Virus record (IMG/VR): IMGVR_UViG_3300025018_000148
Coordinates: 7,094 to 71,093 of that record
Strand: one strand, 5' to 3'
DNA length: 64,000 nucleotides
Origin: a virus
Taxonomy: Duplodnaviria; Caudoviricetes
The position numbers were made by a program, and so were the translations under genes. The notes beneath the pieces are model-generated. The model saw only the letters and a program-made list of their open reading frames with translations. It was not told the origin of the DNA and searched no databases. Below, piece by piece: positions 3,773 to 54,871 of the stretch; positions within the stretch are counted from its first letter, which is position 1; each line of letters begins with the position of its first letter.

Positions 3773-4570
3773 ATGGATAGACTCGAAATACCCGCAACTC
3801 TTTCGTGGGAAGAAATCTCGCCCAAGCTTCCGGAGTGGGCGGTGAAGTTCAACGATGAGCAGAGAGCCTTGGTCCCCGAGATCCTTGACGCCTTGGTCGC
3901 GAATTGGGTCCGGGACGACTGGTTCACCACCCTCGATTTCCGCTATCTCCCGGACACGGTGGGGGACGGAGGGACACCCTACGGCAATGTCGTCCAGTCG
4001 GTTCTCGAATCCCCCCTCGTTTGGTATCACCCGGACGGGGTTCTCAAACAGCCTTTGCTCGACATCGTGGTGGAGAATACCAGATACTTGTTCTCCAACT
4101 TCATTCAGCGGCAGGCTCGCAAAGCCCCGTATTCTTTCAACACCGATTCCTTGAACACCATGCTGCGACTGCCGGGGTGGAAGGAGCTTGTGGATTTCCC
4201 CCACGAGGACCGATACCCGGAGCAGCACGGGAAGGAGCCCATTGCCCCCTACATTCTTAAAGACGAGGGCGAGAGGGTCAAGTTGGTGCCTTCCGACCGG
4301 TATGAAGCCGCCCGTTGGTGGGATCGGATTGTCGTGCAACCGGGGTGGCTGTCCGTGGAAGTCCCTCGGCCCCTGTCTTCTGCCTACTGCTACGGGTCGC
4401 ACCCACAAACCCCCGAGAACTGGCGTGGGGAATGGAAGTGGTTGAACGCCCGCGAGACGATTGGGGAGACAACCTACATTCGTTTCGACGAAGGCTACTT
4501 CCGGGGGCGCTTCGTCGTTCGGACGGACTTCATGGAATTCAAGATCCGGCGCTTCCGGACCCGCATTTAA
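3773..4570 (+). CDS. Degenerate, internally deleted paralogue of the major capsid protein
   Basis: Collinear matches to MCP 31135-32304: PDTVG/PDEMG, QSVLESPLV/QTALESPPV, IVVENT/ILTQNT, YEAA/YETA, GEWKWLN/GDWKWLN, GYFRGRF/GYFRGIF. Confidence 0.8.
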   Translation: MDRLEIPATLSWEEISPKLPEWAVKFNDEQRALVPEILDALVANWVRDDWFTTLDFRYLPDTVGDGGTPYGNVVQSVLESPLVWYHPDGVLKQPLLDIVVENTRYLFSNFIQRQARKAPYSFNTDSLNTMLRLPGWKELVDFPHEDRYPEQHGKEPIAPYILKDEGERVKLVPSDRYEAARWWDRIVVQPGWLSVEVPRPLSSAYCYGSHPQTPENWRGEWKWLNARETIGETTYIRFDEGYFRGRFVVRTDFMEFKIRRFRTRI

Positions 4571-14500: not shown

Positions 14501-17500
14501 GACTGCTCTCTTCGCCCAACTCTTGTTTGACTCCCCAAGATTCCTGCGAGGCAAGCTGCGGGAGAACACTGGGGTCAGGGAACTTTTGTTTGATGGATTC
14601 GACGGTGGTGTCGAATCCGAAGGGGAGGATGGGTTCTTTTGCATTGTTGGGGTTCCCTCTGTTGGATTTGGTGTTGACGGTGGTGAAGGTCGAGACATCG
14701 AAGAGCGCGTCTTGGTCAGCGGCAATCGAGATCTCGACCGCAGTGTCGAAGTTGATGATGGGGAAAGAAACGTCGAGCACAAAGCGGTTGGTGTCGATGT
14801 CGAACCACCCTCCGAGTTGCGCTCCCGGAATGTCGAACATATCTGCGTGCTGCTCTAAGTAAGCTTCGAGATCCGCATCCGAGAAGTCCTCGTTCACGAA
14901 CGCCCCCGTCGCTTTCGAGGGTGCGACGAGGTAGCCAATCGTGGCGAAACTTCCGTCCGGTCCCACGGTGAATCCGTCCTTCGATTCCCGGATGATCGCC
15001 GCGAGAGCGGAGGAATTGGATTTGAAGTCTTGGAATCTCGATGGGGCGGGCGGGTTGGTTTCAGAATCCGATACCACAGATTCTTGGGTTTGTCCAGCAG
15101 AACTTTCCGGGCTTCCGGTTCCCTCGGGGGCTACCGAAGGAAGTCTTGGACGGCTTTGCGTTGGGCTGCTTCCGGAAGGAGTTGCAGTCTCAGCCTTTCT
15201 TTGAGAGGCAGTTTGCGAAGAACGTCTTTCCACTCGGGAGAGGTCTGCGAGGACTTCGTCGAGGAGTTCTTCGACTCGTTGCCTGACGTTGGGGTTTTTG
15301 GTTTCATTGTAGATTTGTTCCCTCAGATTGTTTAGTTCATCGACGGCGGCACCAAGTTCCTCGGGAGTCGCTTCGACATCCTCGTCCGTGGTGAGCTTCA
15401 GTAGGTTGGGTTTGTTGATCAGGTGCCGGGTGAGAGACTGTTCGAAGATACGAGCGTCCCGCTCATACTGCTCGGCAGTGTATTCTTGCTGCTGGTTGAA
15501 ACGGTCAATTCCCTCGCGAACTTCCGCCCGCACTTCCGGGATGTCCTGCACCTCTTCGAAGCGGGGATACTCGATGGCGATCTCGGCTCCTTGTCGAGCC
15601 CGCAATTCGAGACCAACTGTGATGGCGTCGTCCCCTTCGATGGTGAACTCCTTGCCGGTCTCCCGGTCTTTCAGGGTCATCGACGGGGTGTCTCCGGTGA
15701 AGTCGGACGCCACGAAGCCGGACACGGTGGAACGCTTTCCTCCGGGGGTCGAGGCGAAACGGTTCGTCACGACTGCGCCATCTTTCCTCACGAATGCCGT
15801 TCTTGGCGTTCTCGTGCGGCTGGAGACCGGGGTAGCCAGTTTCCGCCCTCCCACCTCGGAGATGATCTGGGCGGCTTGTGCGTCGTCCTGCTCGGCGCTT
15901 TCGTCCAAGGACACCGAGAACTCGCTTTCGGAGAATTTCTGGTCCGGGTTTTTCCCGACGATGATGGGAGGAGCCGTGGGTCCCCGGTCGAGGAGGACCG
16001 TCCCGTCTTCTTCGATGACCAAGGTTCCCGTCTCCCCCTCAACACGCACCGGTCGTCCCTCAACTGCGCGGAAAGTGGGCTCGGCCTTGGTGGGGGTGAC
16101 CGGCGTGACTCCCCCGGCAGCGGGCACGTCTGTTGCGGTCCCGGAAGAAGGAGTCTCGACACCATCAACAATCTCGGTTGTTACTTCACGTTCACGAGCT
16201 TCTTCGATGACTTGCTCAAAGGACACCGGAGTGTTCTTGTATCGGTCGTTGATCGTGCTGACAACCTTGGTTCTCGCTTCCGTGGCGTCCATGCCCTCGG
16301 CGACCAGTTCAGCAACAGCCCGGTTGCCGGTGGCAACCGGGTCATACTCGGCACCCGGAGTGACCGTCGCGTTCAACAGGTTCGAGATCTCGTCCCGTCG
16401 CGCCTTCAACTTCGTCGTGTCCGTGTTCGGTTCGGCTTGATCGATCTGCTGTTCGATCTGGTCGAGTTCGTCGATCAAAGAAGTGACACGAGCTTCCGCT
16501 GCATCGAACACCCGGTTGCCTGCCACTTCGACTTCCCGGACGTTGGCTTTTTCAAGAGCGTCGGCAGTCTGAGTCAGACCGGCTTCCCGGAGTTCCTCGA
16601 CCTTGCGTCTCCGAGCATCCATTTCGGGGGACCGCAGAATCGCTTCGTTGGTGCGGGCAGCAAAAGACTCGAAGGCATTGGTGGGGAGTTCCACGGCTCC
16701 CCCGATGACGGCACCGGCAGTCCCGGCGAAGAGGGTGTTCTTCCACCAGTCCTCCCACGTCATGTCCGGGTTGCTGATAAGGGCATCGAGACCCCCGTTG
16801 ATCCCTTCGTCCAAGGCTTCCTCCAGACCTTCCGAGAGACCCCCTGCGGTGACGCGACCTGCAAAGGCCAAAGTATTTGCGGCACCGTCACTCAGTTCGG
16901 TCTTGAACTCTTTCGCGGCATACTTCTTGATTTGATCGGAAAGAGTCTTCCGAGCCGCAGGATTGTTGGCGACTGTGTTGAGACGAGCGATACCCTCGAT
17001 CCCTCGAAGACCGAAGACGCTCGTGATCGCAGCGGTGATGACTCCCGTCCGGGTTGCATCGAGCAGACCTCGTTGTCTCGCCTCGGCTTCGAGTTCTTCC
17101 CCGGCGAGACCCTGCGCGGCGAGTTCGCTCCGATGTCGTTCGTAGTTCTCGTAGAAAGCGGGACCGGCAGAAGAGGCTCCGGCAAGGGCGATTGCCATGG
17201 GTTTCTGGAGCAGGTCGAGATACTCACCCGTAGCCAGTTTCTTGGTCGGACTCTTTGCGAGGAGACTCTTGGCAAGTTGCGCAGATACCTGCTTCTTCAC
17301 CCCCTTCTTGGCGGCTTGAGCAGCCACCTGTTTTGCGACGGTCACGGTTCCCCCGGACAGCATGGTGGTGGCAATCTGAACGAAGGCATTGGCAGCGGGG
17401 TCGATCAACTTCCCGGCTCCCTCCAGCCCTCCGAGCAATTCGATTCGGGCACTGGCGCTTTGCTTGGCTGCGGAAGTCTCACCGAGAAACCCCATGGAGG

Positions 17501-18410
17501 TGTCCTCGACAATTCCCCCGAGGCGATCCGCCCCAACTTTCTTGAGCCCTTGCCCTGCGAGAATCCCCAGATACCCGGCACCCTCGGCACCGGAGAGGAG
17601 TCCACTTCCGAAAGCCTCGAATCCCTTCTCCCAATCTCCACGGTTGGATTTCTGAAAGGCTTCGATGACATCCCCATTGGTGGCTTCCGGATTGGTAGCC
17701 GCGTATTCTTTGGCAAAACCTCTGAAGGAAGTGAGACCTTTGAAACTTCCAATATGTTCTTTTGCGAGATCCTCCCGAACACGAGTGAACCCGGCAAGGA
17801 CACGGGCTTTCTCCTCGTTGCGGGCTTCGGAGTTGTTCACGACTTCAAGAAACTTCTCCCGATCATAGTATAGCTTCGGGTTCACGAACAACTTGCCTTG
17901 CACGACTCCGTAGTCACGCTTCCCTTGCAAGGCTTCGTCCGCTCGGCGGGCTTCCTCCACCACTCCGGTTCTCCCCGCCTGTTTGTTGGCTCCCTTGGTG
18001 GCGAGGTAGATCCGGTCATCGGCAGCTTGCAACTCAGCGGACAAGTAGTCCTCGTCGTCTCCGAGGGTTCGGAACTTCAGGTTGTTGATCTCACGCTTCT
18101 CCCGCTCCGCAGCACGGACTTCCTCCAATGCGGCGAAGATGGGAGCAAGGTTGTCCTCCTTCTCTTCCTCCGCCATCTGAGAGAGGATCTCTTCAGGAGC
18201 CATGGGCTCTATCCCGAGGGCTTGCTGTCGCGCCTGCTTGACTCGAATGTCATGCCGGAGCTTGTCCTCAAGATTCCACTCTCCCGTGGAGTTCTTTTGA
18301 TCGAGGACATAATTCTCCCACTTTCGAATAGCATCGAGCCGGGTGTCGGCGTCTCCTTCTTGAAAGCGGGGGTCGTTCAGGACTTCGTCCAGCGGGATGA
18401 GGTCAGCCAT
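8529..18410 (-). CDS. Giant (3293 aa) internal virion/DNA-ejection polyvalent protein
   Basis: Last large gene of the tail module; Gly/Ala hydrophobic N-terminal region; kinase-like domain (GEEHEV..RVWK..RLEAQN..VTSQPFVEG..TPQNF..IDV); HETVH zincin motif; helical C-terminal region typical of podovirus internal proteins. Confidence 0.8.
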   Translation of the reverse strand: MADLIPLDEVLNDPRFQEGDADTRLDAIRKWENYVLDQKNSTGEWNLEDKLRHDIRVKQARQQALGIEPMAPEEILSQMAEEEKEDNLAPIFAALEEVRAAEREKREINNLKFRTLGDDEDYLSAELQAADDRIYLATKGANKQAGRTGVVEEARRADEALQGKRDYGVVQGKLFVNPKLYYDREKFLEVVNNSEARNEEKARVLAGFTRVREDLAKEHIGSFKGLTSFRGFAKEYAATNPEATNGDVIEAFQKSNRGDWEKGFEAFGSGLLSGAEGAGYLGILAGQGLKKVGADRLGGIVEDTSMGFLGETSAAKQSASARIELLGGLEGAGKLIDPAANAFVQIATTMLSGGTVTVAKQVAAQAAKKGVKKQVSAQLAKSLLAKSPTKKLATGEYLDLLQKPMAIALAGASSAGPAFYENYERHRSELAAQGLAGEELEAEARQRGLLDATRTGVITAAITSVFGLRGIEGIARLNTVANNPAARKTLSDQIKKYAAKEFKTELSDGAANTLAFAGRVTAGGLSEGLEEALDEGINGGLDALISNPDMTWEDWWKNTLFAGTAGAVIGGAVELPTNAFESFAARTNEAILRSPEMDARRRKVEELREAGLTQTADALEKANVREVEVAGNRVFDAAEARVTSLIDELDQIEQQIDQAEPNTDTTKLKARRDEISNLLNATVTPGAEYDPVATGNRAVAELVAEGMDATEARTKVVSTINDRYKNTPVSFEQVIEEAREREVTTEIVDGVETPSSGTATDVPAAGGVTPVTPTKAEPTFRAVEGRPVRVEGETGTLVIEEDGTVLLDRGPTAPPIIVGKNPDQKFSESEFSVSLDESAEQDDAQAAQIISEVGGRKLATPVSSRTRTPRTAFVRKDGAVVTNRFASTPGGKRSTVSGFVASDFTGDTPSMTLKDRETGKEFTIEGDDAITVGLELRARQGAEIAIEYPRFEEVQDIPEVRAEVREGIDRFNQQQEYTAEQYERDARIFEQSLTRHLINKPNLLKLTTDEDVEATPEELGAAVDELNNLREQIYNETKNPNVRQRVEELLDEVLADLSRVERRSSQTASQRKAETATPSGSSPTQSRPRLPSVAPEGTGSPESSAGQTQESVVSDSETNPPAPSRFQDFKSNSSALAAIIRESKDGFTVGPDGSFATIGYLVAPSKATGAFVNEDFSDADLEAYLEQHADMFDIPGAQLGGWFDIDTNRFVLDVSFPIINFDTAVEISIAADQDALFDVSTFTTVNTKSNRGNPNNAKEPILPFGFDTTVESIKQKFPDPSVLPQLASQESWGVKQELGEESSRILADGSTSPASPRFFRDWLKSNSGSDNPRPTEVVESLRRTNEEAGGGVESPLRRSSEAQRGGLKILPGLPAGMDPDKPDYTSGEEHEVWNDYSTGRVWKVLRRPDYGKSRNLRKYLVRLEAQNVMWGDDIRVEGLLPDGRMVTSQPFVEGRHPESPLELRNLLEKQGWSEWNRSGTVWQTPDGVILMEEVTPQNFIVNEKGEAVAIDVLFLTKEEATADSEEDFEPETIEDLLDRNELASFEAPETEAEVTPEPDTVQEPEAQEYSFGLTGATNARFRQTEDRSEITLTGSVTNVSSDLRDALKDRYVDPDGERPARVAVNKLKDGNLRATVTFAKRPARVMELQRGEGPSGVSFYTSGLDAIEIHSVTNPAPEVTPETAPEPFKSINDFLTGVTFGELMDERNRQKAMMSGTQRMAFDKVLRLLEDTKNSRGRQVRSATFLPIDETDPQENAARMLALVSAERLGIVSNVSSTGKTFRFTGNTTGVTTLLPVDVFPEIANRNTTPLDASPTSNPTARTVAEVREEMFNTDSVQESEAYLEDKKPLTLVRVRDDGDFETSSIPGTNLFKTPDGDIVWATYEDGQWDYGSVYSSVTDNFDEDSIRNKDALERIAGEMRDARQQAVSDRIDMLLDYNERTNSEVWIVTQEDGDTTRSMTAKEEYLFIEATDTFLRTRGNLHSARGKNTPLNASPTGDSPQQTQYTRGGEWSEVTNALLERARIRYPNVPTRLDRTVPVPARTVGRQLIFNPDMLSEMTEGMYPQDAAHAIEKIFIHETVHLGATQELGDAEVIAHANQMSLDERLDVARNYLHRSAYPSDRDYQQALIDFTGNDPRLTPAQRQTRLYRLGHEALRMTYERLRTGHTTEETLGFLSMNPGVFRRATFYLRSVLRRLREWVRVRRDPALHSFMDRVSKALWVMENRKLHIDRGEIPFNPSEGAPTPTTVYNALLGREIETGQTRSVPLDASPWGRQQRVPLYNSGKTKGYNQGGWFSAAFRWDRRLFEQLEKSRGRVNASMKRAEFFHAEVRSLMKKHFGPEDKWPTALVNEALGNTDNRLTLADEDFSRQIRKSGLAQAKSDYLKARQRAKSLDTRATTTGNRSLADQAAKLRETAKEQFDLDVKAYKLRAENYEKQARARIRQQARVRQDDILNNQLPKDLVDVLRDMRQQIDLLSKELQRDGLISGDLKATIHENEGLWLHRSYKIFDQDNYVDWLLSEDAEASTIRNKSLNFIRAELIAEEQAKLIASGAATGPAALAQAQAAVTDDMVREKFHDYLSVADFGVKNILQGATVSKEVNTLMQRGTIPPEIRELWGEYDDPIINAAKSLGAVTQFLATQKFFQEIRDLGVKEGWVSENSQYDGQGNRLVPLLTNNGMTGRFNNTPDVRFTPLSGLYGPPALRDALAQTMSDQSRPAWLKFFQSLTGYSMATKTVLSWQSAWRNFWGNIIPTVANGNLGWRSPWQIKTAIVDDFVNLSNRGPKAIRERIIRLVELNVIGESVTESLISELTQGFSSKKKAVTFVEKMMEKTLLSRLVGKGFESATRFYGSQDDFWKIVNFENELKRVEKFRPNATRSEIEEEAAKIVRATMPTYSQAPELVRAIRLMPFLAPYITFPAEVYRTSAGILRTGLSHVAEGLKTNNGALVAAGVSRLTGFALATAGLYGIVALARAQSGWDEEDEEDLRQQLPYWETNSTFVMMGREANGDIDYFNLSYMNPYDVWARPVRAFIRGMKDPDSGVPETITETLSELIDPVAKEQIFFGALIDIARGVEKSGGNVYDTTDPLLRKAKLSLQHIYESALEPGSLASIRRIMKGWNEEVSQAGRSYNFANEFVSAAFGIKKSSTNSESNLSWGARAFKYDQRQAASEFTRVFKSPGTQSNDEIISSYVRANDKMKDAYLRIRRKAVAAIRLGTMTKGDVVRELQSSKLGDDAIADILSNQYRRYMPTKETYTIATQNGRELNQDRIALFREALQLVPPVQQLSEDDNF

Positions 18411-31134: not shown

Positions 31135-32304
31135 TTAAGCCACGGGGTTGTGGTTTTCGTCGATGAAGACGTTCTGGACGTTGGCCCGCTTGTGGCGAAG
31201 CACATATCCGAACTCCGGATGGATCGGTTCAGACCCGGACGAGAAGATCCCACGGAAGTAGCCCCAAGACTTGTCGGGGTTTTCGACCCGATCTGGGATG
31301 TTGAGCCACTTCCAATCCCCCATGTATTTCTGAGCCTCGAACTCGGTCTCGCCACCGGGAGTGGTGATCGAAGCCGGGATGAGAGAACGAAACACCGAGC
31401 GGAGGAAGATGATGGTGTCCTCGTAGGTAGCGGTCTCGTAATCCGGATTCTCGACAGCCCTCGACCCCTTGGTCGTGGCGACAAGAATCAGCGGCGGGAC
31501 CTCGACCCACACACCCCCGGTGAAGTTCCAGCGGGGCGGGAAGTCGTCGATGAGATGGTAGAACCCGTTGTAGGCGCGGCTGACACCGAGAGGAGCAAGA
31601 AGCTCGGGAGCACGAGAAGTGTTCCGAATATCCTCACGGATCTCGTAGTCCTTGCGGACGATAGCCTTGTCCGTTTCGGGCGACATGATCGCGACGAACT
31701 GCGGGCGACCATCGACGTAATCGACAGAGCCGTCATCACGAGCCGCACCCTGACGAGTGAGCTTGAGGTGGAACCGTTCGAGGATGTCGCCGGTCAGACG
31801 ACCAGTGGGTTCCGTGGTCGGGAAGGAGCCACTGGCTTCCGGGAAACCGTCAGCGCAGATGACCTTGTGCTCCGAGAGGCGCACATACTCGCTCCGGTGA
31901 CGCTCCTGCCAAAGCCAACCGGTGTTCTGGGTCAGGATGCTGTAACAGTTCTCAAGCTGCTTGCGCCGCTTGAACGTGAAACGCAGGTCGTTGATACAAA
32001 CCGGAGGCGATTCGAGAGCCGTCTGCTGGAGGTTGTAGTTCCGAAGGGTTTGAGCGAATTCGATCTGTTCGGCAGTAGGCACACAGTTGGAGCCAGTGCC
32101 ATCGTTGAAGGTGACCGTTTGCCACGTCGGAGAGTTCGCAGGGATCGTGCGCTCGTAAGTGAGCACCGAAATCTGCTCGCCCATCTCGTCGGGCCAAGTC
32201 CCCTTCTCGACAAGATCGATCCAGACAGTAGTGTGAAGCGTGCGGTCGTGGATGTCCTCGGAGATCCGTCCCGATTCGCTTACCAAAAGATCGTTGATGT
32301 CCAT
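31135..32304 (-). CDS. Major capsid protein
   Basis: 389 aa; downstream of portal and scaffold; own long leader, candidate promoter and terminator. Confidence 0.8.
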   Translation of the reverse strand: MDINDLLVSESGRISEDIHDRTLHTTVWIDLVEKGTWPDEMGEQISVLTYERTIPANSPTWQTVTFNDGTGSNCVPTAEQIEFAQTLRNYNLQQTALESPPVCINDLRFTFKRRKQLENCYSILTQNTGWLWQERHRSEYVRLSEHKVICADGFPEASGSFPTTEPTGRLTGDILERFHLKLTRQGAARDDGSVDYVDGRPQFVAIMSPETDKAIVRKDYEIREDIRNTSRAPELLAPLGVSRAYNGFYHLIDDFPPRWNFTGGVWVEVPPLILVATTKGSRAVENPDYETATYEDTIIFLRSVFRSLIPASITTPGGETEFEAQKYMGDWKWLNIPDRVENPDKSWGYFRGIFSSGSEPIHPEFGYVLRHKRANVQNVFIDENHNPVA

Positions 32305-45875: not shown

Positions 45876-48539
45876 TTATTTGTTTTGTTGTCTGTCAATC
45901 TGAAGGAATTGGATCGTGTGATCCCCTCCAGAGAGAATATCATTCTCGATCAACTCTTCGAGAAAAGCTTCTAAATTGTCTTCTTTGCTGCCATGCGGAG
46001 CAGCCTCACGAATCTTGTCTTCGAGAGCCGTGATATGCACGGACCCCACACACTCGATGAAATCCGGCAAGGTGACTCCATACCCCTCCGCCACATTGAA
46101 CGCGGCAACGGCATTGGAGACAACCCGCTTCGTCTTCTTGGTCATCTTCTTGAATCCGGGGATGTCCAGCCCTTCGTCGAAGGCAAGCTCGTTCGCCTTC
46201 GCCTTGACGGATTCGATCCATGCTTCCAGCACCGGCACCATCATCCGGGCTTTGCCGATCTCCTCGGGGGTGTCCATGAGGGAGGCGTCGAGATACTCCG
46301 GGAGGACGAGCCCGTCCTCCATACGATCCCGATAGATGAGGAGAACCTTGTCGTTGAGAGCCTGACAAGTCTCCTTGCGACCGCACCACTCACAGACGTG
46401 GGGAGTCGGATTGAATTCCTTCCCGGCAAGCTTCTTTGCCTTGGAGATGACGAGGTTGATGCGGAGATGGAGATCGTGCATCGTCCCCGAAGATTCCTGC
46501 CCCTCCTCCTCCCACCACTCGGGAATCTCGACATTCTCGTCCCGCAGGAATGCGGCCATGGTGATTGTGTTCTGCCGGGGGACGAGGAAATAGAAATACA
46601 CGATCTCCACTTTGGGGAACCTCTGGAAGACCCCCAAAGTATACGCCCACGCTTGACTGTTGATCTCCGCATCATCGACCGGCGTCCAACCGCACTTGTA
46701 GTCGTGGGCGACCGCAACATTGCCGTAGACGGCAAGACGATCCATGGTGCCGAAGGTCTGGTGATTCGAGAGATCGATCTGAAGGCGGATCTCGTTGAAC
46801 TTCTCACCCTCCGAGACTCCGAACATCTCCTCGTTGGAGTAGACCTTGTTCATCATCTGCCACGCGAGCATCTGCTCGCCCTCGTCCTGAAGGGACTCGG
46901 GGTCCTCCCGTTCGAGAGCATGGTGAATCCGGGTCCCCGCGACAGTCATCTCGTGCAACTCCGCATCCTCCTTCTCCTTCCGGTTCTCGTAGGAAGGGCA
47001 CGTCTCAAAATACTTGAGGGAGGAAGGTCCGTATTCGGCGTGCGCCGGTTGCGCGTCCAGCAATTCGAACTCAGGTTCGAGAACCTCTTCCTGCTTTTTG
47101 ACGGGAGCTTTCTTGGAGGGGCTCTTTTTCGCAGGGGTCTTTTTGGTCGGCGCGGCTTGCTTGGCGGGGGCTTTCTTCGGGGGCATAGCGTTCTCGTTCG
47201 GTTGGTGCAGAGTCTCCAGATTCTTTAGCTTGCGATCCAAGGCTTCTCGAACTTGCTCTTCGACGGTGCCTGCCGCAAACAGAATGCGTTGAAGAGTATC
47301 AGTCTTTGCTCCCGCTCTGTCAACTCTTCCTAGCACTTGTTTGATAGTCTTCTCATTCCAAGCCGGAGAAATGAGTGCCAACCGGGGAGCATTGCCGATT
47401 TTATCGTGCAAGGAGATCGCGACTCCCCCCGCCTCGACGTTCAAGATTATGATGTTGTCCCGTCCGGACTGGAAAGCTTCGATGGCGGATTGCCGCTCTT
47501 CGGGGGACTGCTGGACCTTGGTGTCCGGGTCGGTCCCCCACACAATCGGACAATTGCCTCCGAGCCGGGAGTTGAGAGCCTTGACACTGGCGTTGAAATT
47601 CAAGAATATGGGGACGTGCCACCCTTCGGCAATCGCCTCGGTCACCATCTCGGCCATGAGTGGAATCTTGAGCAACTCGACTCTCTGCCGCGCACGGAGC
47701 ATGGCGATCAGAATCTCCGCCTCCGGAGACACCTTGTCCTCCGCTTCTTTGGCTTCGAGTTCCTCGATCTCCGCTTCCATCTCCGCATAGATCCTCTCAA
47801 TCTCCCCGTCGTCACCGAAGTCCACCGGGGTTGTGATGATATGACCGTTGGAGAAGAACTCCCGGAGTTCGTGCCGGTGGACCTTGTAGCCATGACCGGG
47901 GTAAAGCTCCCGGTTCAATTGCTGGAGAATCTCCTCCGCCTTCTCTTCGTTCTGGGTGAACTGCCATCTCTTCCACCGGTCCTTCCGGCACCCGTGGCGC
48001 TTCGCCCATGCGACATAGTCGTAATACCGGTGGAGCCCCAGCACATACCCCACGGTCTTCAATTCAGTGGGGTCCTTGGCGACCGTCGCAGACACGAGCA
48101 TGTTCATGATGTCCGTGTTATCCCCCGCATACTTGAGCATTCTCGAACTGAGCGACTTGGCTTCCTTGCACTTGTGGACCTCGTCCCAGATGATGAGTCC
48201 GATCTGCTCGTTCCAGACGAAATCCCTTTGCTCCGGGTCCCCCTTCTTGGGAGGATCTCCCACCCAAGCTCCGCAGATGGTGTTGCCCCGGCGAATCAAA
48301 TCATAGTTGATGATCCCAAGATACTCTACCCCCTGCTCATTGAACGTGGCTTCCCAGTCGGGGATGACCGACAGGGGGCAGATCACGAGAGGACGCCTGC
48401 CCACATTGCGGGAGATCTCAACACTCATGAGCGTCTTCCCCGTCCCCGTGTCGGAGGCATTCAACGCAGACCCTTTCTCCAGAAGGAGGTGGGTGAGGTG
48501 ATCGATGGCGACCTGCTGCGGTGGATAGGGAGTGAGCAT
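45876..48539 (-). CDS. SNF2-like SF2 helicase fused to a PD-(D/E)XK (DUF2800/Cas4-like) exonuclease
   Basis: DTGTGKT, WDEVH, SAT and QVLGRVDR, then GPSSL..CP, GTRIH, GTMD..DYKCG, CEWC..C. Confidence 0.85.
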   Translation of the reverse strand: MLTPYPPQQVAIDHLTHLLLEKGSALNASDTGTGKTLMSVEISRNVGRRPLVICPLSVIPDWEATFNEQGVEYLGIINYDLIRRGNTICGAWVGDPPKKGDPEQRDFVWNEQIGLIIWDEVHKCKEAKSLSSRMLKYAGDNTDIMNMLVSATVAKDPTELKTVGYVLGLHRYYDYVAWAKRHGCRKDRWKRWQFTQNEEKAEEILQQLNRELYPGHGYKVHRHELREFFSNGHIITTPVDFGDDGEIERIYAEMEAEIEELEAKEAEDKVSPEAEILIAMLRARQRVELLKIPLMAEMVTEAIAEGWHVPIFLNFNASVKALNSRLGGNCPIVWGTDPDTKVQQSPEERQSAIEAFQSGRDNIIILNVEAGGVAISLHDKIGNAPRLALISPAWNEKTIKQVLGRVDRAGAKTDTLQRILFAAGTVEEQVREALDRKLKNLETLHQPNENAMPPKKAPAKQAAPTKKTPAKKSPSKKAPVKKQEEVLEPEFELLDAQPAHAEYGPSSLKYFETCPSYENRKEKEDAELHEMTVAGTRIHHALEREDPESLQDEGEQMLAWQMMNKVYSNEEMFGVSEGEKFNEIRLQIDLSNHQTFGTMDRLAVYGNVAVAHDYKCGWTPVDDAEINSQAWAYTLGVFQRFPKVEIVYFYFLVPRQNTITMAAFLRDENVEIPEWWEEEGQESSGTMHDLHLRINLVISKAKKLAGKEFNPTPHVCEWCGRKETCQALNDKVLLIYRDRMEDGLVLPEYLDASLMDTPEEIGKARMMVPVLEAWIESVKAKANELAFDEGLDIPGFKKMTKKTKRVVSNAVAAFNVAEGYGVTLPDFIECVGSVHITALEDKIREAAPHGSKEDNLEAFLEELIENDILSGGDHTIQFLQIDRQQNK

Positions 48540-48557: not shown

Positions 48558-48863
48558 TCATTTGCGAGCGATTTTGAACGACAAACGATTTTGAGGATCA
48601 CGAATGTCCGACAAATCCGGCTCCCGGTGTATCCGACCTTCCTGCGCTTTGAAGCTCCCCGCCAATCGGAGATACTCTTCCCGGTGTCGGGCTTCGTAGA
48701 CCGTCCTCGTGCTGGTCACCAGAAGCCGGTAGATCCTGTCGAGTTCCTCGGAAGTCACATACCCCGGAACACGACCCGGAGAGGGCAGCACGGGGGTCTC
48801 CACGACCTGCCGACACCCGGCAACAAAAGCGGCAACGCCGATGAGGAAGCGACGACGGTTCAT
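48558..48863 (-). CDS. Tat-signal lipoprotein-like peptide carrying an MCP-derived segment
   Basis: MNRRRFLIGVAAFVAGC (RRxFL + lipobox); LDRIYRLLVTSTRTVYEARHREEYLRLA is 11/28 identical, ungapped, to MCP 117-144. Confidence 0.75.
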   Translation of the reverse strand: MNRRRFLIGVAAFVAGCRQVVETPVLPSPGRVPGYVTSEELDRIYRLLVTSTRTVYEARHREEYLRLAGSFKAQEGRIHREPDLSDIRDPQNRLSFKIARK

Positions 48864-49225
48864 GACTTGGGCTGTTGCTTCTCGATTCGCTGGATCTCCC
48901 GGTCAAGATACCTCCGGGCCTTCTTCAGATCTTCGAGAGGGTTTCCTTTTTCGTCGGCACGCCAAATATACTTGATGGCGTTTCCGAGGCAAAAGTTCAT
49001 GTGCTCGGTGATCTGAATACACTCCACTCCGGAAGGGTGCTTCCGATAGTGGGGAGGCAGGTTGACCAAGTCAACTTCCGGAAGTTGGTCCGGAGCTTCG
49101 GAGGCATCCCCCGAGACCATCCACGTCCACTTCCCATGCCCTTCGCAGGCGGGATCATTGCACTGCCCCATAACATTCGTGGGACCTTGGCACCGGGGAC
49201 AGAGATAGTCAGATGCGCTTCCCAT
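48860..49225 (-). CDS. DUF3310 (SaV-like) protein with N-terminal CxxC
   Basis: VNLPPHYRKHPSGVECIQI...FCLGNAIKYIWRA..K..EDLKKARRYL. Confidence 0.85.
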   Translation of the reverse strand: MGSASDYLCPRCQGPTNVMGQCNDPACEGHGKWTWMVSGDASEAPDQLPEVDLVNLPPHYRKHPSGVECIQITEHMNFCLGNAIKYIWRADEKGNPLEDLKKARRYLDREIQRIEKQQPKS

Positions 49226-50294
49226 GGAGAATACTCTTGAGGTTGTGGGCAACGATCTCCGGGGAGAGCGAGTTGAGGACGGAGCACTGAAGCTCCACGG
49301 CACACTTCTTTCCGGGAGGGAAAGGATTGCCTCCCACAGGAAGGTAGTTGCAGAACCGGCAGGGTCCCATGCCTTTCATGGCTTGGACCGTCTTCTGGTC
49401 CCCTTGGGTGAGCGAAGGATCGAAAGCTCCGGAGAGCACGAGAGCGGGGATGTCGAGGGCTCCGGCGACGTGCATGAAGAGGGAGTCGGGGACAAGCATC
49501 ACGTCACAGGTCTTGGCAACCGCGACCGACATTCGAACGGACAACCCCTTCTCGGAAAGATTGACCAGATTGTCCGCTTTCCCCCACGCAACATCAATGT
49601 CACCGGGAGCCCCGAACAGGTAAATCTCGTCGGCGACTTTGTTCCGGAGGAGATGCGCCATGACCTCCACCGTCCGTTTGCGATGATAGGTCCGGTTCTC
49701 CGCCGATGCCCGCACTTGCACCCCGACCCGGATCTTCCCCGACTCCTTGGGGAAGCTGTCCTCCGCCCACGCCATCTCGTCGGCGGTGAGCACGTAGAGA
49801 ACCTTGCGGTCGTCGAGACGGTCGAGTCCACAAGCCCGAGCGAACCGGGTCGCGTAGGTGTAACCGGCAAGCTCCTTGTCAGGATGCTCCAAGACCCCTT
49901 CGAGGAAGAAGTAGTGGTTGCCCGGCTGCTGGTAGTCCTCAAACTTTACGGGGTATCCAACCGTGTCCACAACCCCATTGAGGATGGGTGCATACCGGGG
50001 GTGGCACACCACCTTGACCGCAACCCCCGGATACCTGAGTCTCAAAGCTTTCACGGTGGGGGTGAGAAGGAGCAGGTCCCCGAAAGATCCGGGGCGGACG
50101 AGATATATTGTATCCCCGGAAAGGATGTTCGAAGGGAGAACTCCCGAAACGACTTTCCTCTGGAGGTTCTCCACCTCTCCCACCGCATTCTGGGTGAGGG
50201 CTTGCGCCAACGGCATGGGTCCGAGGATATACTCTCCGGAGTCCACTCCCAGCCGGGAGAACCACCATGCTTGATTGCAATTCACTTTATACAT
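49209..50294 (-). CDS. GT9-family (heptosyltransferase-like) glycosyltransferase
   Basis: GSFGDLLLLTPTVKALR, VPDSLFMHVAGALDIPALVL, PCRFC...C. Confidence 0.85.
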   Translation of the reverse strand: MYKVNCNQAWWFSRLGVDSGEYILGPMPLAQALTQNAVGEVENLQRKVVSGVLPSNILSGDTIYLVRPGSFGDLLLLTPTVKALRLRYPGVAVKVVCHPRYAPILNGVVDTVGYPVKFEDYQQPGNHYFFLEGVLEHPDKELAGYTYATRFARACGLDRLDDRKVLYVLTADEMAWAEDSFPKESGKIRVGVQVRASAENRTYHRKRTVEVMAHLLRNKVADEIYLFGAPGDIDVAWGKADNLVNLSEKGLSVRMSVAVAKTCDVMLVPDSLFMHVAGALDIPALVLSGAFDPSLTQGDQKTVQAMKGMGPCRFCNYLPVGGNPFPPGKKCAVELQCSVLNSLSPEIVAHNLKSILHGKRI

Positions 50295-50320
50295 ACTTCA
50301 GATACTTGGGGTTAAACTCG

Positions 50321-51160
50321 TCAGCTTCCGACAACATTTCCGTCCTCCGTCCAACGGAACTCGCCGACAGGGAGGGGCTTCCCACACTGACAGCAATAAG
50401 TGAGCCCGTAGAATGACGGATCACTTGCATAGGTCTCGGCGATCACCGGAGCAATGTTCGTTGTCGCCCCGCAGGTCGTGTGAACGTAGGAGCGACGAAG
50501 GGGGCGAACAAACCCCCGCTTCGCCAGTTCTTCCTTCGAGAGGACGAGAAACTTCACGCTCTGCCCGTCTGCCCTGCGCTCATGGAGTCGGGGATCGTCG
50601 GGGTCGGTAGTGAACGGGGGTTCGACCGGGGGCTTCTCCCACGTCATCCCACCATAAGGAGGGTCGAGTTTCGTGGGGGCGAACTTGTTGAGCCATTTTC
50701 GCGCTCCCCGAAAGGCCGCAGTGGTCTCGACTCCGGTCGTCCCGATCATGGAGATAAGCTCCGCAGCTTCCGCCACGGCTCTTTCCAAGGTGTGCCCGGT
50801 ATTGCACTGGACCTGCGTGCTGCGGTCGTCGTAGCACGTCTTCATGAGTCCGTCCTTCTCGTGGGTGACCTCGAACCGCTGCCCGAAGAGATGCTCCTCA
50901 CACCAGTCTTGGATGCACTCAACAATCTGAGCCTTGGAAACCCCTTGATTCCACTCCAGACACTCGGGGGAAACCCGAGCCGTGAAGATCTTGATGTCGT
51001 GGGTGTTCTCGCGCAAGATACGATGCACATCGCGGACCATCTCGACAACCGGGTCCCCGATGTGAAGAGGGTGCTTCCACCCATCATAATGCGCCAAAGT
51101 TCCGTCGAGATCGAAACCGATCCAACCCCTCTTCTTGATTCCGTGCGTATCAGTGCCCAT
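50321..51160 (-). CDS. HAD-superfamily phosphatase-like domain fused to a C-terminal Zn-binding domain
   Basis: IGFDLDGTLA motif I, IFTAR, YDD; C-terminal HTTCG...YCCQC. Confidence 0.75.
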   Translation of the reverse strand: MGTDTHGIKKRGWIGFDLDGTLAHYDGWKHPLHIGDPVVEMVRDVHRILRENTHDIKIFTARVSPECLEWNQGVSKAQIVECIQDWCEEHLFGQRFEVTHEKDGLMKTCYDDRSTQVQCNTGHTLERAVAEAAELISMIGTTGVETTAAFRGARKWLNKFAPTKLDPPYGGMTWEKPPVEPPFTTDPDDPRLHERRADGQSVKFLVLSKEELAKRGFVRPLRRSYVHTTCGATTNIAPVIAETYASDPSFYGLTYCCQCGKPLPVGEFRWTEDGNVVGS

Positions 51161-51401
51161 GCTTCTTTGCTCCTCGTAAAATTTGCTTCACTTCGGGGTC
51201 AGACATGACCCGGAGATGGATGCCATCTTCAAGTTCCTGCACGACCATGTTCTGCCCCTCATGACTGGCTGTCGCGGCGAAGACATCCTCGGCAGAGAGG
51301 ACGATGTGCTTCAACCCCTGCTTGTGCATGAGGATCATCAAAAGCTTGTGCCACTGCCCTGAAAAGGCTTCGGCGACTGCGGGGTCAGGATTTATACTCA
51401 T
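51150..51401 (-). CDS. Hypothetical protein
   Basis: 83 aa from ATG 51401, overlapping both neighbours. Confidence 0.6.
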   Translation of the reverse strand: MSINPDPAVAEAFSGQWHKLLMILMHKQGLKHIVLSAEDVFAATASHEGQNMVVQELEDGIHLRVMSDPEVKQILRGAKKHGH

Positions 51402-51618
51402 ATTGTGGGAGGTGTTGGCTGAGAGCGATCCAAGGAGACTCCCCGAGGACCTTTGTGTGAATGTCATGAGAGATGTTGTGAGCCTCGGCAATCAGGATCT
51501 CGTCAATGGTCCAACGACGGGAGGCTTGCGCCACCACCGGGGAAGATTCGAGAATGGGACGGACCCCCGCCACAAAAGCGAGAGCCATCCCGAGGAAAGC
51601 TCTTCGAGAGGACCTCAT
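51385..51618 (-). CDS. Tat-signal peptide carrying an MCP N-terminus-derived segment
   Basis: MRSSRRAFLGMALAFVAGV...VAQA; TIDEILIAEAHNISHDIHTKVLGESPWIAL is 12/30 identical, ungapped, to MCP 2-31; ATGA-coupled. Confidence 0.75.
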   Translation of the reverse strand: MRSSRRAFLGMALAFVAGVRPILESSPVVAQASRRWTIDEILIAEAHNISHDIHTKVLGESPWIALSQHLPQYEYKS

Positions 51619-53647: not shown

Positions 53648-53687
53648 CAAAAACAAAACCCCGCCCCAGCGACAGGCTGGGGCGGGG
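53648..53687 (-). terminator. Intrinsic terminator downstream of the integrase
   Basis: ccccgccccagc/gctggggcgggg 12-bp stem then TTTTGTTTTT on the minus strand. Confidence 0.75.
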
Positions 53688-53743
53688 CGAAGCAAGTGCC
53701 GGAAAACCGCTCGTAAACCGGGCACCAACAGAACCACCGAAAG

Positions 53744-54871
53744 CTACCGATGACCGGGGAGAATGTCAAGCCAAGCTTTCGCCTGCTCGGTCGTGACCAG
53801 AGCTTTATACTCCGACTCCAACACCTCCTCGGAATGCCCGGTCTCCTTCGACACCGTGGTTCGATCATATAGTTGAGTCATCGAAGAGACGAATCCCTTC
53901 CGGAGCCCGTTATCCACCCACACCACCCCCGCGAGTTTTGCGCAGGCGCGAAGACGCCGGTTGGGGTTCGTGTTGGTGACGAGCTTCTCCGCAAAGTTCC
54001 TGCGGTAGCCGGGGGACTTGTCCCAGATCCATTGCAACCAAGAATGTAGGGTGTCGGAAACGGTGACCGCACGACGTTGGTCCGTCTTCGTGATCTCGGA
54101 CGAGAGCGGGATCTGGGGTTGCCCGTCGAGGACGGCGATGATGTGCGACATCCGCAACTGCCGGATCTCCGACTGCCGCATTCCGGCGAAGGCCCCGAGC
54201 ACGAGCAGATATAGGACATCGATGTCGCGAGTCTTGGCAGCGGCTCCCAAGAGGGCTCCCAAAACCTCGGGGGTGAAAGGCACAGGATCTTTAGGAGGCA
54301 CCCGAGAAGGCCGGACATCCCGGACGGGGTTGTCCCCCTTCACCCGGAACCCGTGACCGCAAGCCCAATCAAAGAACCCCACAAGGATGGTCCTCTTATT
54401 GTTGCGGGTCTTGGAATTCTTGTAGAGCCGGAGGAACAACTGGATGTCGTTCAAAGCAACCCCCGCCACCGTGTTGTCGGCGAAATCAGCGAACTGCTCC
54501 AACAGACTGCGCTTCCCGCGAACCGTGGACTCGGGCAAACCCCGCTCACGCTCGGTCGAACAGAACCCCGAAATGGCGTCCTCCCACCGGACAGGCTTCA
54601 CGCCGCGAACCTCGCTCACATACCTTTGCACGGCTGCGAGCACCCCCAAACCTTCTGAAACCTCCCCCAAGAGGAGCCTTGCCGCGTGGTATTCCTCGAC
54701 CTCCTGCGGCGTGAGGGGTCGCTGAACATTCTTCAGATACACGAGAATGCTGTCCTTCTGCTTCTGGACTTCCGAGTCCTTCACGATCCGGCGTATGGTC
54801 TCCCCCGCCACAGAGTAGCGGAGTTCCTTGAAGCCGGGTTTGTTGTCGTAGATCTTGACGGGGCTGCTCAT
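53744..54871 (-). CDS. int: Tyrosine recombinase (phage integrase)
   Basis: FAGMRQSEI (R), ITKT (K), NGLR (HxxR variant), TGHS, EYKAL (Y nucleophile). Confidence 0.9.
   Translation of the reverse strand: MSSPVKIYDNKPGFKELRYSVAGETIRRIVKDSEVQKQKDSILVYLKNVQRPLTPQEVEEYHAARLLLGEVSEGLGVLAAVQRYVSEVRGVKPVRWEDAISGFCSTERERGLPESTVRGKRSLLEQFADFADNTVAGVALNDIQLFLRLYKNSKTRNNKRTILVGFFDWACGHGFRVKGDNPVRDVRPSRVPPKDPVPFTPEVLGALLGAAAKTRDIDVLYLLVLGAFAGMRQSEIRQLRMSHIIAVLDGQPQIPLSSEITKTDQRRAVTVSDTLHSWLQWIWDKSPGYRRNFAEKLVTNTNPNRRLRACAKLAGVVWVDNGLRKGFVSSMTQLYDRTTVSKETGHSEEVLESEYKALVTTEQAKAWLDILPGHR

What the first reader, a model, noticed from the sequence alone, without database searches (positions are those of the whole stretch)
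48558..48863. Tat lipoprotein signal fused to an MCP helix segment
MNRRRFLIGVAAFVAG-C has a twin-arginine motif and a lipobox. After a Pro-rich spacer, LDRIYRLLVTSTRTVYEARHREEYLRLA aligns ungapped to MCP LENCYSILTQNTGWLWQERHRSEYVRLS (11/28 identical, including RHRxEYxRL). This is inferred to be the spine-helix region. Tat exports folded complexes, so the peptide could carry a bound MCP-sensing partner out of the cytoplasm or display an MCP epitope in the envelope (speculative).
Basis: partly seen in the sequence, partly recalled or inferred. Interest (0 to 1): 0.82.

Follow-up and report, generated by a model that had tools for sequence, protein, structure and literature searches.

The report
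Export-tagged lipoprotein copying capsid spine helix
An uncultured phage carries a small gene found nowhere else that joins a bacterial export-and-lipid-anchor signal to an old copy of the long inner helix of its own head-shell protein; this design has not been described in print and its function is untested.

Summary
ORF 48558-48863 lies on the minus strand and encodes 101 aa. It starts with a twin-arginine motif (NRRRFLI), a Gly/Ala-rich hydrophobic stretch and a lipobox (VAG-C17).

Residues 35-69 match the spine helix of the phage's 389-aa protein (31135-32304). I show that protein to be an HK97-fold capsid protein closest in fold to N4-like phages.

The match is not chance:
- The capsid-family profile scores the ORF at 17.7 bits (E 8e-5).
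- The best unrelated ORF scores 1.7 bits in the window, and at most 6.2 bits in 57,000 six-frame ORFs of related phages.

Two other genes of the same phage carry other capsid pieces:
- 51385-51618 has a similar Tat-type leader plus the N-arm.
- 3773-4570 has no leader and matches the C-terminal third of the capsid protein.

The target has no homologue among 1.84 billion representative proteins. It sits where related phages have nothing, and 15-22 relatives lack such pieces. The copy is old (51% DNA identity).

Export, lipidation and function are all inferred. My best reading is a periplasm-exposed, lipid-anchored mimic of the capsid's inner surface. Notes from this scan report the same design (leader plus virion-protein piece) in at least 15 other genomes. 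I could not link this leader to them by sequence.

The parts
48558..48863 (-). Target gene, 101 aa: leader, linker, long helix, tail
   Evidence: ORF list. Best codon log-odds of the six frames, 0.14, and a GC1/2/3 pattern like the phage's genes. ATGA overlap with the upstream gene. Its own exact sequence is recorded on 2 contigs in the protein collection.
48813..48863 (-). Leader, residues 1-17: twin-arginine motif N-R-R-R-F-L-I, h-region, lipobox V-A-G-C17
   Evidence: Read. The lipobox rule plus an RR motif is rare: 3 of 11,543 ORFs. AF2 puts a helix at 3-21. No PF10518 or TIGR01409 hit.
48753..48812 (-). Linker, residues 18-37, with 4 Pro; modelled as disordered
   Evidence: AF2 pLDDT is below 50 at 18-32 with no secondary structure. 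Pro count. E-T-P at 22-24 lies on the same ungapped diagonal as the capsid protein's E-S-P at 98-100 (read).
48657..48761 (-). Capsid-like segment, residues 35-69, matching capsid protein residues 111-145 (spine helix)
   Evidence: hhalign 86.6%, E 4.5e-6. hmmsearch 17.7 bits against profile positions 116-148. AF2 puts a helix at 38-72. It keeps the family-invariant R135, E139 and R142, and the near-invariant L117, L124 and R137.
31135..32304 (-). Major capsid protein, 389 aa, HK97 fold; the model for the copied segment
   Evidence: More than 324 homologues. AF2 pLDDT 76. Foldseek hits to N4-like and HK97 capsid proteins.
31876..31977 (-). Spine helix of the capsid protein, residues 110-143
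   Evidence: DSSP on the AF2 model.
51385..51618 (-). Sibling gene, 77 aa: S-R-R-A-F-L leader ending A-Q-A, then a copy of capsid N-arm residues 1-34
   Evidence: hmmsearch 19.2 bits, E 2.9e-5. hhalign 93%, E 3e-7. The leader is 48% identical to the target's. ATGA overlap with the DUF1353 gene, from coordinates. Called as a gene by other pipelines.
3773..4570 (+). Leaderless 265-aa capsid paralogue; its residues 147-249 match capsid residues 258-356
   Evidence: hmmsearch 27.1 bits, E 1.2e-7. hhalign 95.9%, E 5e-9. The only relative is a 98% variant on an 8.4-kb contig.
48860..49303 (-). Upstream DUF3310 gene, translationally coupled to the target
   Evidence: Pfam PF11753, E 2e-15.
45876..48539 (-). 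Downstream helicase plus DUF2800 nuclease gene; with DUF3310 it frames the insertion slot
   Evidence: Pfam and PHROGs. In relative G002, DUF3310 and the helicase abut directly.

Best explanation
The target is a real accessory gene specific to this lineage. It belongs to an uncultured, N4-like-capsid phage whose hosts are probably in the Verrucomicrobiota or Planctomycetota.

The product has four parts:
1. A 16-residue twin-arginine-type leader ending in a lipobox.
2. A flexible linker of about 20 residues containing Pro.
3. One helix of about 35 residues that is an old, diverged copy of the spine helix of this capsid-protein family.
4. A basic tail of about 30 residues.

Shown: the anatomy, the homology to the capsid helix, the lack of any homologue, the insertion between two genes that are adjacent in a relative, and two sister genes carrying other capsid pieces.

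Inferred: the protein is made with the replication genes early or mid infection, exported (by Tat or Sec), lipidated on Cys17, and tethered in the periplasm.

Further inferred, and weakest: the helix works as a mimic. In procapsids of other phages the N-arm lies under the spine helix on the inner face of the shell, and the pair docks the scaffolding protein (PMC5644958, PMC6813328). Together with its sibling, the target would display exactly these two elements outside the cytoplasm. There it would act as bait for something that normally recognises that surface. I think the likeliest target is internal or ejected virion proteins of a superinfecting relative. That would exclude superinfection the way the lipoprotein Ltp does by binding the tape-measure protein.
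For: Gene reality: best codon score in its frame; ATGA coupling and an 18-nt gap to the next gene.

Leader: motif and lipobox read, and rare by rule. The sibling has a 48% identical leader with an AxA site and a basic residue after the h-region. Language-model neighbours include Tat-signal clusters at sub-threshold scores of 0.81-0.83.

Capsid homology: with empirical nulls.

Capsid identity and helix.

Single long helix in the target.

Three capsid-derived genes in one genome and none in 22 related records or in 15 related records (13 entire) rescanned without filters.

Insertion slot.

Envelope context: a GT9-like glycosyltransferase and a HAD-type phosphatase lie between the two leader genes.

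Diderm hosts: capsid relatives sit in Verrucomicrobiota and Planctomycetota MAG contigs.

N-arm and spine helix adjoin and dock the scaffold: PMC5644958, PMC6813328.
Against: There is no experimental or predictor evidence of export.

PF10518 and TIGR01409 do not match. Only 12 uncharged residues follow the RR motif, which is short for a Tat signal.

The AF2 model is of low confidence (pLDDT 56).

There are no homologues, so there is no conservation or dN/dS evidence of selection.

The copied segment is no closer to the phage's own capsid protein than to distant family members. It ranks 39-41 of 121. So there is no sign of co-evolution with its own capsid.

The identities are not significantly concentrated on one helical face (p 0.12).

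The exclusion mechanism is by analogy only.
Confidence: 0.5

Rival explanations
1. The target is an assembly interferer aimed at capsid protein or scaffold in the cytoplasm. The capsid piece would act as a dominant-negative fragment against co-infecting relatives, or as a timer on the phage's own assembly. This is comparable to satellite CpmB competing for the scaffold site, or to prophage tail-assembly blockers. The leader would serve only as a membrane tether or as a way of disposal.
For: The copied residues are the family-wide invariant ones rather than those specific to this phage's capsid protein. That suits action on many relatives. The N-arm and spine helix form the scaffold-docking site in other phages. 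A leaderless capsid paralogue exists in the same genome. An earlier scan note (e1-3289211) reached a similar reading on other DNA, unchecked by me.
Against: A leader with a positive N-terminus and a 12-residue h-region would put the mature part outside the cytoplasm, away from assembling capsids. A lipobox has no role in the cytoplasm. The phage's own capsid protein would be hit as well.
Confidence: 0.15
2. The target is an ordinary phage envelope lipoprotein, for example a receptor-masking or exclusion protein like T5 Llp or Cor, or an o-spanin-like lysis protein. Its capsid ancestry would be only the raw material for a new gene, with no mimicry involved.
For: Small phage lipoproteins expressed early are a known kind (10.64898/2026.03.26.714494 and PMC3952083, listed). 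The linker contains Pro, as in o-spanins. The slot upstream of the helicase holds varied small genes in relatives, including a 49-aa membrane protein in G007. The copy is old and strongly diverged.
Against: Two independent leader genes each carry a different capsid piece, and both keep the family's invariant residues. That is hard to explain as incidental. There is no similarity to any PHROG lipoprotein or spanin family. The gene is 46 kb from the endolysin and has no i-spanin partner.
Confidence: 0.17
3. The peptide folds in the cytoplasm, binds a host protein that senses capsid protein, and carries it out through Tat, or it soaks up such a sensor as a decoy.
For: Several defences do sense capsid proteins or short capsid segments, such as Avs7 and Dsr1 (10.64898/2026.01.04.697583). 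The Gol peptide of T4 gp23 with Lit is another case, cited from my own knowledge. Tat can export complexes (established knowledge). A possible anti-defence gene neighbourhood surrounds the leaderless paralogue (note e1-5973442, unchecked).
Against: Nothing in the data points to a host sensor. A lipobox implies a membrane-anchored end state, not removal of cargo. A single helix is a small handle for a specific complex. The papers searched hold no precedent. An earlier later-check on another genome (e1-3266402) found no support for exported decoys.
Confidence: 0.08
4. The target is a non-functional relic: a decaying scrap of a second capsid gene that happens to be open and happens to follow a leader-like start.
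For: It is an ORFan with no conservation data. Its codon score is at the low end of the phage's genes. Long spurious ORFs are common in this 57% G+C genome.
Against: The frame is open after divergence to 51% DNA identity. It has ATGA coupling. A canonical RRxFL motif plus lipobox is rare (about 1 in 10,000 ORFs). The sibling has the same build. The best codon score is in this frame.
Confidence: 0.1

Closest known systems
Twin-arginine (Tat) signal peptides and Tat-dependent lipoproteins (Pfam PF10518, TIGR01409)
   Same: It has an RRxFL motif after a short basic n-region, a Gly/Ala-rich h-region, and a lipobox Cys. The sibling has the classic S-R-R-x-F-L, a basic residue after the h-region, and an AxA site.
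   Different: The leader is only 16 residues before the Cys, with 12 uncharged residues after the motif. Neither profile matches it. The passenger is a single helix with no cofactor domain. Export is untested.
Phage-encoded small lipoproteins for superinfection exclusion: T5 Llp, Cor, Streptococcus phage TP-J34 Ltp
   Same: It is a small, early-expressed, lipid-anchored phage protein facing the envelope. Ltp acts by binding a protein of the incoming virion.
   Different: There is no sequence similarity. None of those proteins is known to be built from a capsid-protein piece or to use a Tat-type leader. It is not next to a receptor-binding gene.
HK97-fold major capsid proteins of N4-like phages (PDB 9bgn, 9lbz, 9e99), spine helix alpha-3
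   Same: Residues 35-69 are homologous to the spine helix. They keep the invariant R, E, R and two Leu of this capsid family.
   Different: Only one helix is present. There is no A-domain, P-domain sheet or E-loop. It cannot be a shell subunit.
Capsid-directed proteins of satellites: SaPI1 CpmB (competes for the scaffold site on the capsid protein) and SaPIbov5 Ccm (a whole capsid-protein homologue)
   Same: These are accessory proteins related to, or aimed at, the capsid protein's inner N-arm and spine-helix surface.
   Different: They are cytoplasmic and leaderless, and they act on a helper phage's assembly. Ccm keeps the whole fold.
'Leader plus virion-protein piece' mini-genes noted by this scan in at least 15 other genomes (e.g. 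e1-3266402, e1-3283814, e1-5378195); AI notes, not published
   Same: The design is the same: a twin-arginine-type leader joined to a short old copy of a piece of the phage's own capsid protein, often several per genome.
   Different: I found no sequence link between this leader or protein and any other instance.
Braun's lipoprotein Lpp (architecture only)
   Same: It is a small lipoprotein whose mature part is essentially one long helix, and it ends in Arg-Lys.
   Different: There is no sequence relation. Lpp uses Sec and forms a trimeric coiled coil. No heptad pattern or peptidoglycan link was tested here. The resemblance is recalled from memory, not tested.

Membership tests
Twin-arginine (Tat) signal peptide | S/T-R-R-x-F-L-K-type motif at the junction of the n- and h-regions | tested here: met
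   N-R-R-R-F-L-I at residues 2-8. In 3.2 Mb of related DNA the only canonical RRxFL leaders are this one and its sibling.
Twin-arginine (Tat) signal peptide | Match to the curated profiles PF10518 or TIGR01409 | tested here: not met
   No hit at E up to 10 or 0.01. These short profiles are insensitive and HMMER filters drop weak hits, so this is weak negative evidence.
Twin-arginine (Tat) signal peptide | Export that depends on TatABC and on the RR pair | not testable with these tools
   This needs reporter fusions in wild-type and tat-deletion hosts, plus an RR-to-KK variant.
Bacterial lipoprotein signal (lipobox, PROSITE PS51257-type rule, recalled from memory) | [LVI][ASTVI][GAS]-C with Cys at positions 15-35, K/R in the first 7 residues, and no charge in the 6 residues before the box | tested here: met
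   V-A-G-C17. The rule hits 59 of 11,543 ORFs, and 3 of them also have an RR motif.
Bacterial lipoprotein signal | Lgt/LspA processing and acylation | not testable with these tools
   This needs globomycin sensitivity, a C17A variant and palmitate labelling.
HK97-fold major capsid protein (family of alignment A1) | Significant profile similarity | tested here: met
   17.7 bits, E 8e-5. hhalign 86.6%. Null maxima of 5.2 and 6.2 bits.
HK97-fold major capsid protein (family of alignment A1) | Complete fold: N-arm, E-loop, P-domain sheet and A-domain | tested here: not met
   Only residues 35-69 align. The AF2 model has one long helix besides the leader. It is a fragment, not a member.
o-spanin (Rz1-like) | Gene embedded in or next to an i-spanin gene within the lysis cassette | tested here: not met
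   The endolysin is at 372-1949, 46 kb away. The neighbours are DUF3310 and a helicase. No type-II membrane protein is adjacent.
Llp / Cor / Ltp exclusion lipoproteins | Sequence membership in the family | tested here: not met
   No PHROG, Pfam or NCBIfam hit.
Scan-noted 'leader plus virion-piece' mini-genes | Tat-type leader fused to a piece of the phage's own capsid protein | tested here: met
   for the piece. for the leader.
Scan-noted 'leader plus virion-piece' mini-genes | Shared, nearly invariant leader sequence linking the members | tested here: not met
   No relative in 1.84 billion representatives. None in IMG/VR with a two-leader alignment. No look-alike in earlier windows.

The most novel reading that the evidence does not exclude
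The target and its sibling are exported mimics of the capsid's inner surface. They copy the two capsid elements, N-arm and spine helix, that lie together inside the procapsid shell and dock scaffold or internal proteins. They display these elements in the periplasm, one lipid-anchored and one soluble. There they would capture ejected internal proteins of superinfecting relatives, or another factor that reads this surface. With the similar genes noted by this scan in many unrelated phages, this would be an undescribed, general phage strategy: export-tagged pieces of the phage's own virion proteins.
Probability: 0.22. Interest if true: 0.85.

Novelty: new variant of a known kind. Interest (0 to 1): 0.62.

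Why it matters
Phages are known to encode small envelope lipoproteins and, separately, capsid-protein paralogues. A gene that joins an export and lipid-anchor signal to a copied piece of the capsid protein is in neither class, and I found no paper describing one.

If the helix acts as a mimic outside the cytoplasm, a virion's inner surface would be reused as a binding module in the envelope. Possible uses are exclusion of rival phages or evasion of host factors. That would give a handle on what recognises this conserved capsid surface.

This phage offers a compact test case. One genome holds three pieces, with two kinds of leader end (lipobox and AxA). Close relatives lack the genes and can serve as natural controls.

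Tried and rejected
Homologue searches for the target all came back empty:
- The word-indexed search found only the target itself.
- Full HMMER over 1.84 billion representatives found only itself.
- IMG/VR by peptide patterns found nothing.
- tblastn against cultured phages found nothing.

The capsid protein also has no match among cultured phages.

Closer relatives of the phage could not be fetched:
- The helicase as query found nothing in IMG/VR or in JGI metagenomes.
- A helicase N-terminus alignment brought 80 loci, the best at 59% identity.
The Logan and ENA contigs with capsid proteins 76-92% identical could therefore not be read.
- The genome search does not draw relatives for a virus record.

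The pairing of the target with its sibling, the capsid protein or the scaffold is therefore untested.

A leader-only alignment found no other leader of this kind in IMG/VR.

I tested whether the copy derives from the phage's own capsid lineage. It does not. The phage's own capsid protein ranks 39-41 of 121, and no clade stands out.

I tested for a recent duplication and rejected it: DNA identity is 51%.

I tested whether identities cluster on one helical face. The result was not significant, p 0.12.

I considered an o-spanin and set it aside on gene context.

The ESM Atlas gave only sub-threshold leads.

Promoter and terminator scans gave nothing above chance near the gene. The one exception is a strong terminator at 53658-53688 that heads the operon.

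Full report
**The sequence.** The window is bases 7094-71093 of a 71,093-bp IMG/VR virus record that CheckV rates as complete. Nearly all genes run on the minus strand.

The finding's coordinates hold a minus-strand ORF of 101 codons. Its ATG at 48863-48861 overlaps the TGA of the upstream DUF3310 gene (48860-49303), giving the sequence ATGA. Its stop lies 18 nt before the ATG of an 887-aa helicase plus DUF2800 nuclease gene. Of the six frames over this stretch, the annotated one has the best codon log-odds, 0.14 per codon. The other frames score -0.03 to -0.45, and the phage's genes score 0.06-0.57. Its GC1/2/3 pattern of 0.64/0.46/0.65 resembles the phage's 0.60/0.43/0.70.

A strong terminator at 53658-53688 precedes the operon, which runs from the resolvase gene through this ORF to the helicase and polymerase genes. 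The ORF is therefore probably transcribed with the replication genes.

**The leader.** The protein starts M-N-R-R-R-F-L-I-G-V-A-A-F-V-A-G-C. This contains a twin-arginine consensus (RRxFL), an 11-residue Gly/Ala-rich hydrophobic stretch, and a lipobox (V-A-G-C17).

I applied a PROSITE-type lipobox rule, written from memory, to 11,543 longest ORFs from the phage and 2.2 Mb of related loci. It hit 59 ORFs. Only 3 of these also have an RR motif: the target, and one poor sequence seen twice.

Looser scans for twin-arginine leaders covered those loci and a further 1.05 Mb from 15 related records, 13 of them fetched entire. They found only two canonical examples, the target and one sibling in the same genome.

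Against this, neither Pfam PF10518 nor TIGR01409 matches. Only 12 uncharged residues follow the motif. The ESM Atlas's nearest feature neighbours include a Tat-signal cluster and the periplasmic [Fe] hydrogenase small subunit, but at 0.81-0.83, below the level that counts. The leader is therefore Tat-like and lipoprotein-like by rule. Export itself remains an inference.

**The capsid protein.** This ORF has no Pfam or PHROG match but has more than 324 homologues in metagenomes.

An AlphaFold2 model built on 46 of them (pLDDT 76, pTM 0.75) has a helix at residues 110-143. Foldseek matches the model to capsid proteins of Pseudomonas phage DEV, N4, B2, Moo19, HK97 and many others at E 1e-11 to 1e-7.

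**Is the similarity real?** Several tests agree that it is.
- BLASTP gives 11/30 identities, 30.8 bits, E 3e-6 for the single comparison.
- I built a profile of the capsid family and searched it, with all filters off, against every six-frame ORF of at least 30 aa in the window (1,148 ORFs). It scores the target at 17.7 bits, E 8.1e-5, with profile positions 116-148 against target residues 38-70. The next unrelated ORF scores 1.7 bits.
- hhalign gives 86.6% probability, E 4.5e-6, for residues 35-69 against capsid residues 111-145.
- As an empirical null, I ran the same profile against 37,867 six-frame ORFs from loci of related phages and 19,290 from the 15 related records. The best non-capsid scores were 5.2 and 6.2 bits.

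The target keeps the family's invariant R135, E139 and R142, and the near-invariant L117, L124 and R137. It differs at Q116, N127 and W132. On the same ungapped diagonal, E-T-P at 22-24 faces the capsid protein's E-S-P at 98-100 (read).

A single-sequence AlphaFold2 model of the target is of low confidence (pLDDT 56). It places a helix at 3-21 (the leader), no structure at 22-37, one long helix at 38-72, and a disordered tail.

**Two more capsid pieces in the same phage.** The same profile search lifted two other ORFs far above background.
- ORF 51385-51618 (-) encodes 77 aa. It starts M-R-S-S-R-R-A-F-L, has a leader 48% identical to the target's, a basic residue after the h-region, and an A-Q-A site. 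The rest copies the capsid N-arm: profile positions 4-35, 19.2 bits, hhalign 93%. Its ATG also overlaps the stop of the upstream DUF1353 gene.
- ORF 3773-4570 (+) encodes 265 aa and has no leader. It matches capsid residues 258-356 (27.1 bits, hhalign 95.9%).

My tests were run before I read those notes and agree with them.

**Distribution and age.** The target has no homologue:
- only itself in the word-indexed search,
- only itself in a full HMMER pass over 1.84 billion representatives, which has no length limit,
- nothing in IMG/VR,
- nothing in cultured phages.

Twenty-two related virus records, 20 of them at least 90% complete, each hold the capsid gene and no extra capsid-like piece. My unfiltered rescan of 15 of those records, 13 of them entire, agrees.

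In the relative closest over this region (G002, helicase 52% identical), the genes for DUF1353, DUF3310 and the helicase follow one another directly. The target, its sibling, and the block between them are therefore insertions in this lineage. That block holds a GT9-like glycosyltransferase, a HAD-type phosphatase and a 113-aa ORF.

The copy is old. DNA identity to the capsid gene over the aligned 90 nt is 51%. The phage's own capsid protein is no closer to the piece than are distant family members, ranking 39-41 of 121, and no clade stands out for any of the three pieces.

**Host.** Relatives of the capsid protein lie on contigs of MAGs assigned to Luteolibacter, Chthoniobacterales, Opitutae, Verrucomicrobiales, Blastopirellula and Planctomycetia. 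This points to diderm hosts of the PVC group, which have a periplasm. That they have lipoprotein machinery is established knowledge, not tested here.

**What it most likely is.** The anatomy is that of a small tethered protein: lipid anchor, flexible linker, one long helix, basic tail.

[quoted passage not shown] The scaffolding protein docks on the N-terminal helix and, in SPP1, also on the amino end of the spine helix (PMC5644958; PMC6813328). The two leader-bearing genes thus copy two elements that adjoin on the capsid's inner face.

My best reading is that both are sent to the periplasm, one anchored and one soluble, and there present this surface as bait. The likeliest use, by analogy with the lipoprotein Ltp that binds an incoming tape-measure protein, is capture of internal or ejected proteins of a superinfecting relative. 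Early expression and the neighbouring glycan-modifying genes fit an envelope role. Every step after the anatomy is inference.

**Rivals.** I considered four:
- a cytoplasmic assembly interferer aimed at capsid protein or scaffold, with the leader as tether,
- an ordinary exclusion or lysis lipoprotein whose capsid ancestry is incidental,
- a decaying relic.

The o-spanin version fails on context. The endolysin is 46 kb away and there is no i-spanin partner.

**Relation to earlier notes of this scan.** Searches of the scan's notes show the same design, a twin-arginine-type leader joined to a piece of the phage's own capsid or other virion protein, reported in at least 15 other genomes. These include T4-like, Mx1-like, jumbo and N4-type phages. 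One later check (e1-3266402) kept the observation but found no support for exported decoys. These are unchecked AI notes.

What I could test here is whether this protein or its leader is related by sequence to others. It is not, as far as these tools can see. This is therefore an independent instance of the design.

I found no paper describing such genes.

**Limits.** The contigs of the closest relatives (capsid proteins 76-92% identical) could not be read. There is therefore no evidence on selection, and no partner was tested.

Noticed in passing
window 49209-51491 (-): A block inserted between the DUF1353 and DUF3310 genes, relative to phage G002. It holds a GT9-like (heptosyltransferase-type) glycosyltransferase, a 279-aa protein with an N-terminal HAD motif and weak hits to heptose-pathway and polynucleotide-kinase PHROGs, and a 113-aa ORF. 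The two leader-bearing capsid-piece genes lie on either side of it, with the DUF3310 gene between the block and the target.
   Followed up: partly
window 8529-18410 (-): A 3293-aa ORF. Its only PHROG match is a 'virion structural protein' family (phrog_22602, E 2e-34, residues 2491-3202). Its size and the N4-like capsid suggest a giant internal or ejected protein. I did not test for an RNA polymerase domain.
   Followed up: partly
window 53744-54871 (-) and 53658-53688 (-): A tyrosine-integrase-like gene (phrog_1, E 1e-21) in a phage with an N4-like capsid. It is followed by a 13-bp G+C-rich terminator that separates it from the replication operon.
   Followed up: no
window 372-1949 (+): A 525-aa endolysin-like protein (amidase PHROGs) with a long run of P-V-E-P-P type repeats near its C-terminus. 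No holin or spanin is evident next to it.
   Followed up: no
L118:4876-5025 (+) (virus record G007): In this relative, the slot just upstream of the helicase gene holds a 49-aa ORF with two hydrophobic stretches. Other relatives have a zinc-ribbon ORF or a glycosyltransferase there. The slot seems to be a hot spot for small accessory genes.
   Followed up: no
virus records G016, G019, G020, G021: The capsid gene of these four relatives matches the family profile in two pieces (positions 1-265 and 265-381) within one open frame of about 500-519 aa. This implies an inserted domain of roughly 50-65 aa (120-200 nt between the two matched pieces) after profile position 265.
   Followed up: no
window 3773-4570 (+): The leaderless capsid paralogue has a 98% identical variant on an 8.4-kb NCBI contig. 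That is its only relative found among proteins of similar length (145-464 aa) in the 15-billion-protein collection.
   Followed up: partly
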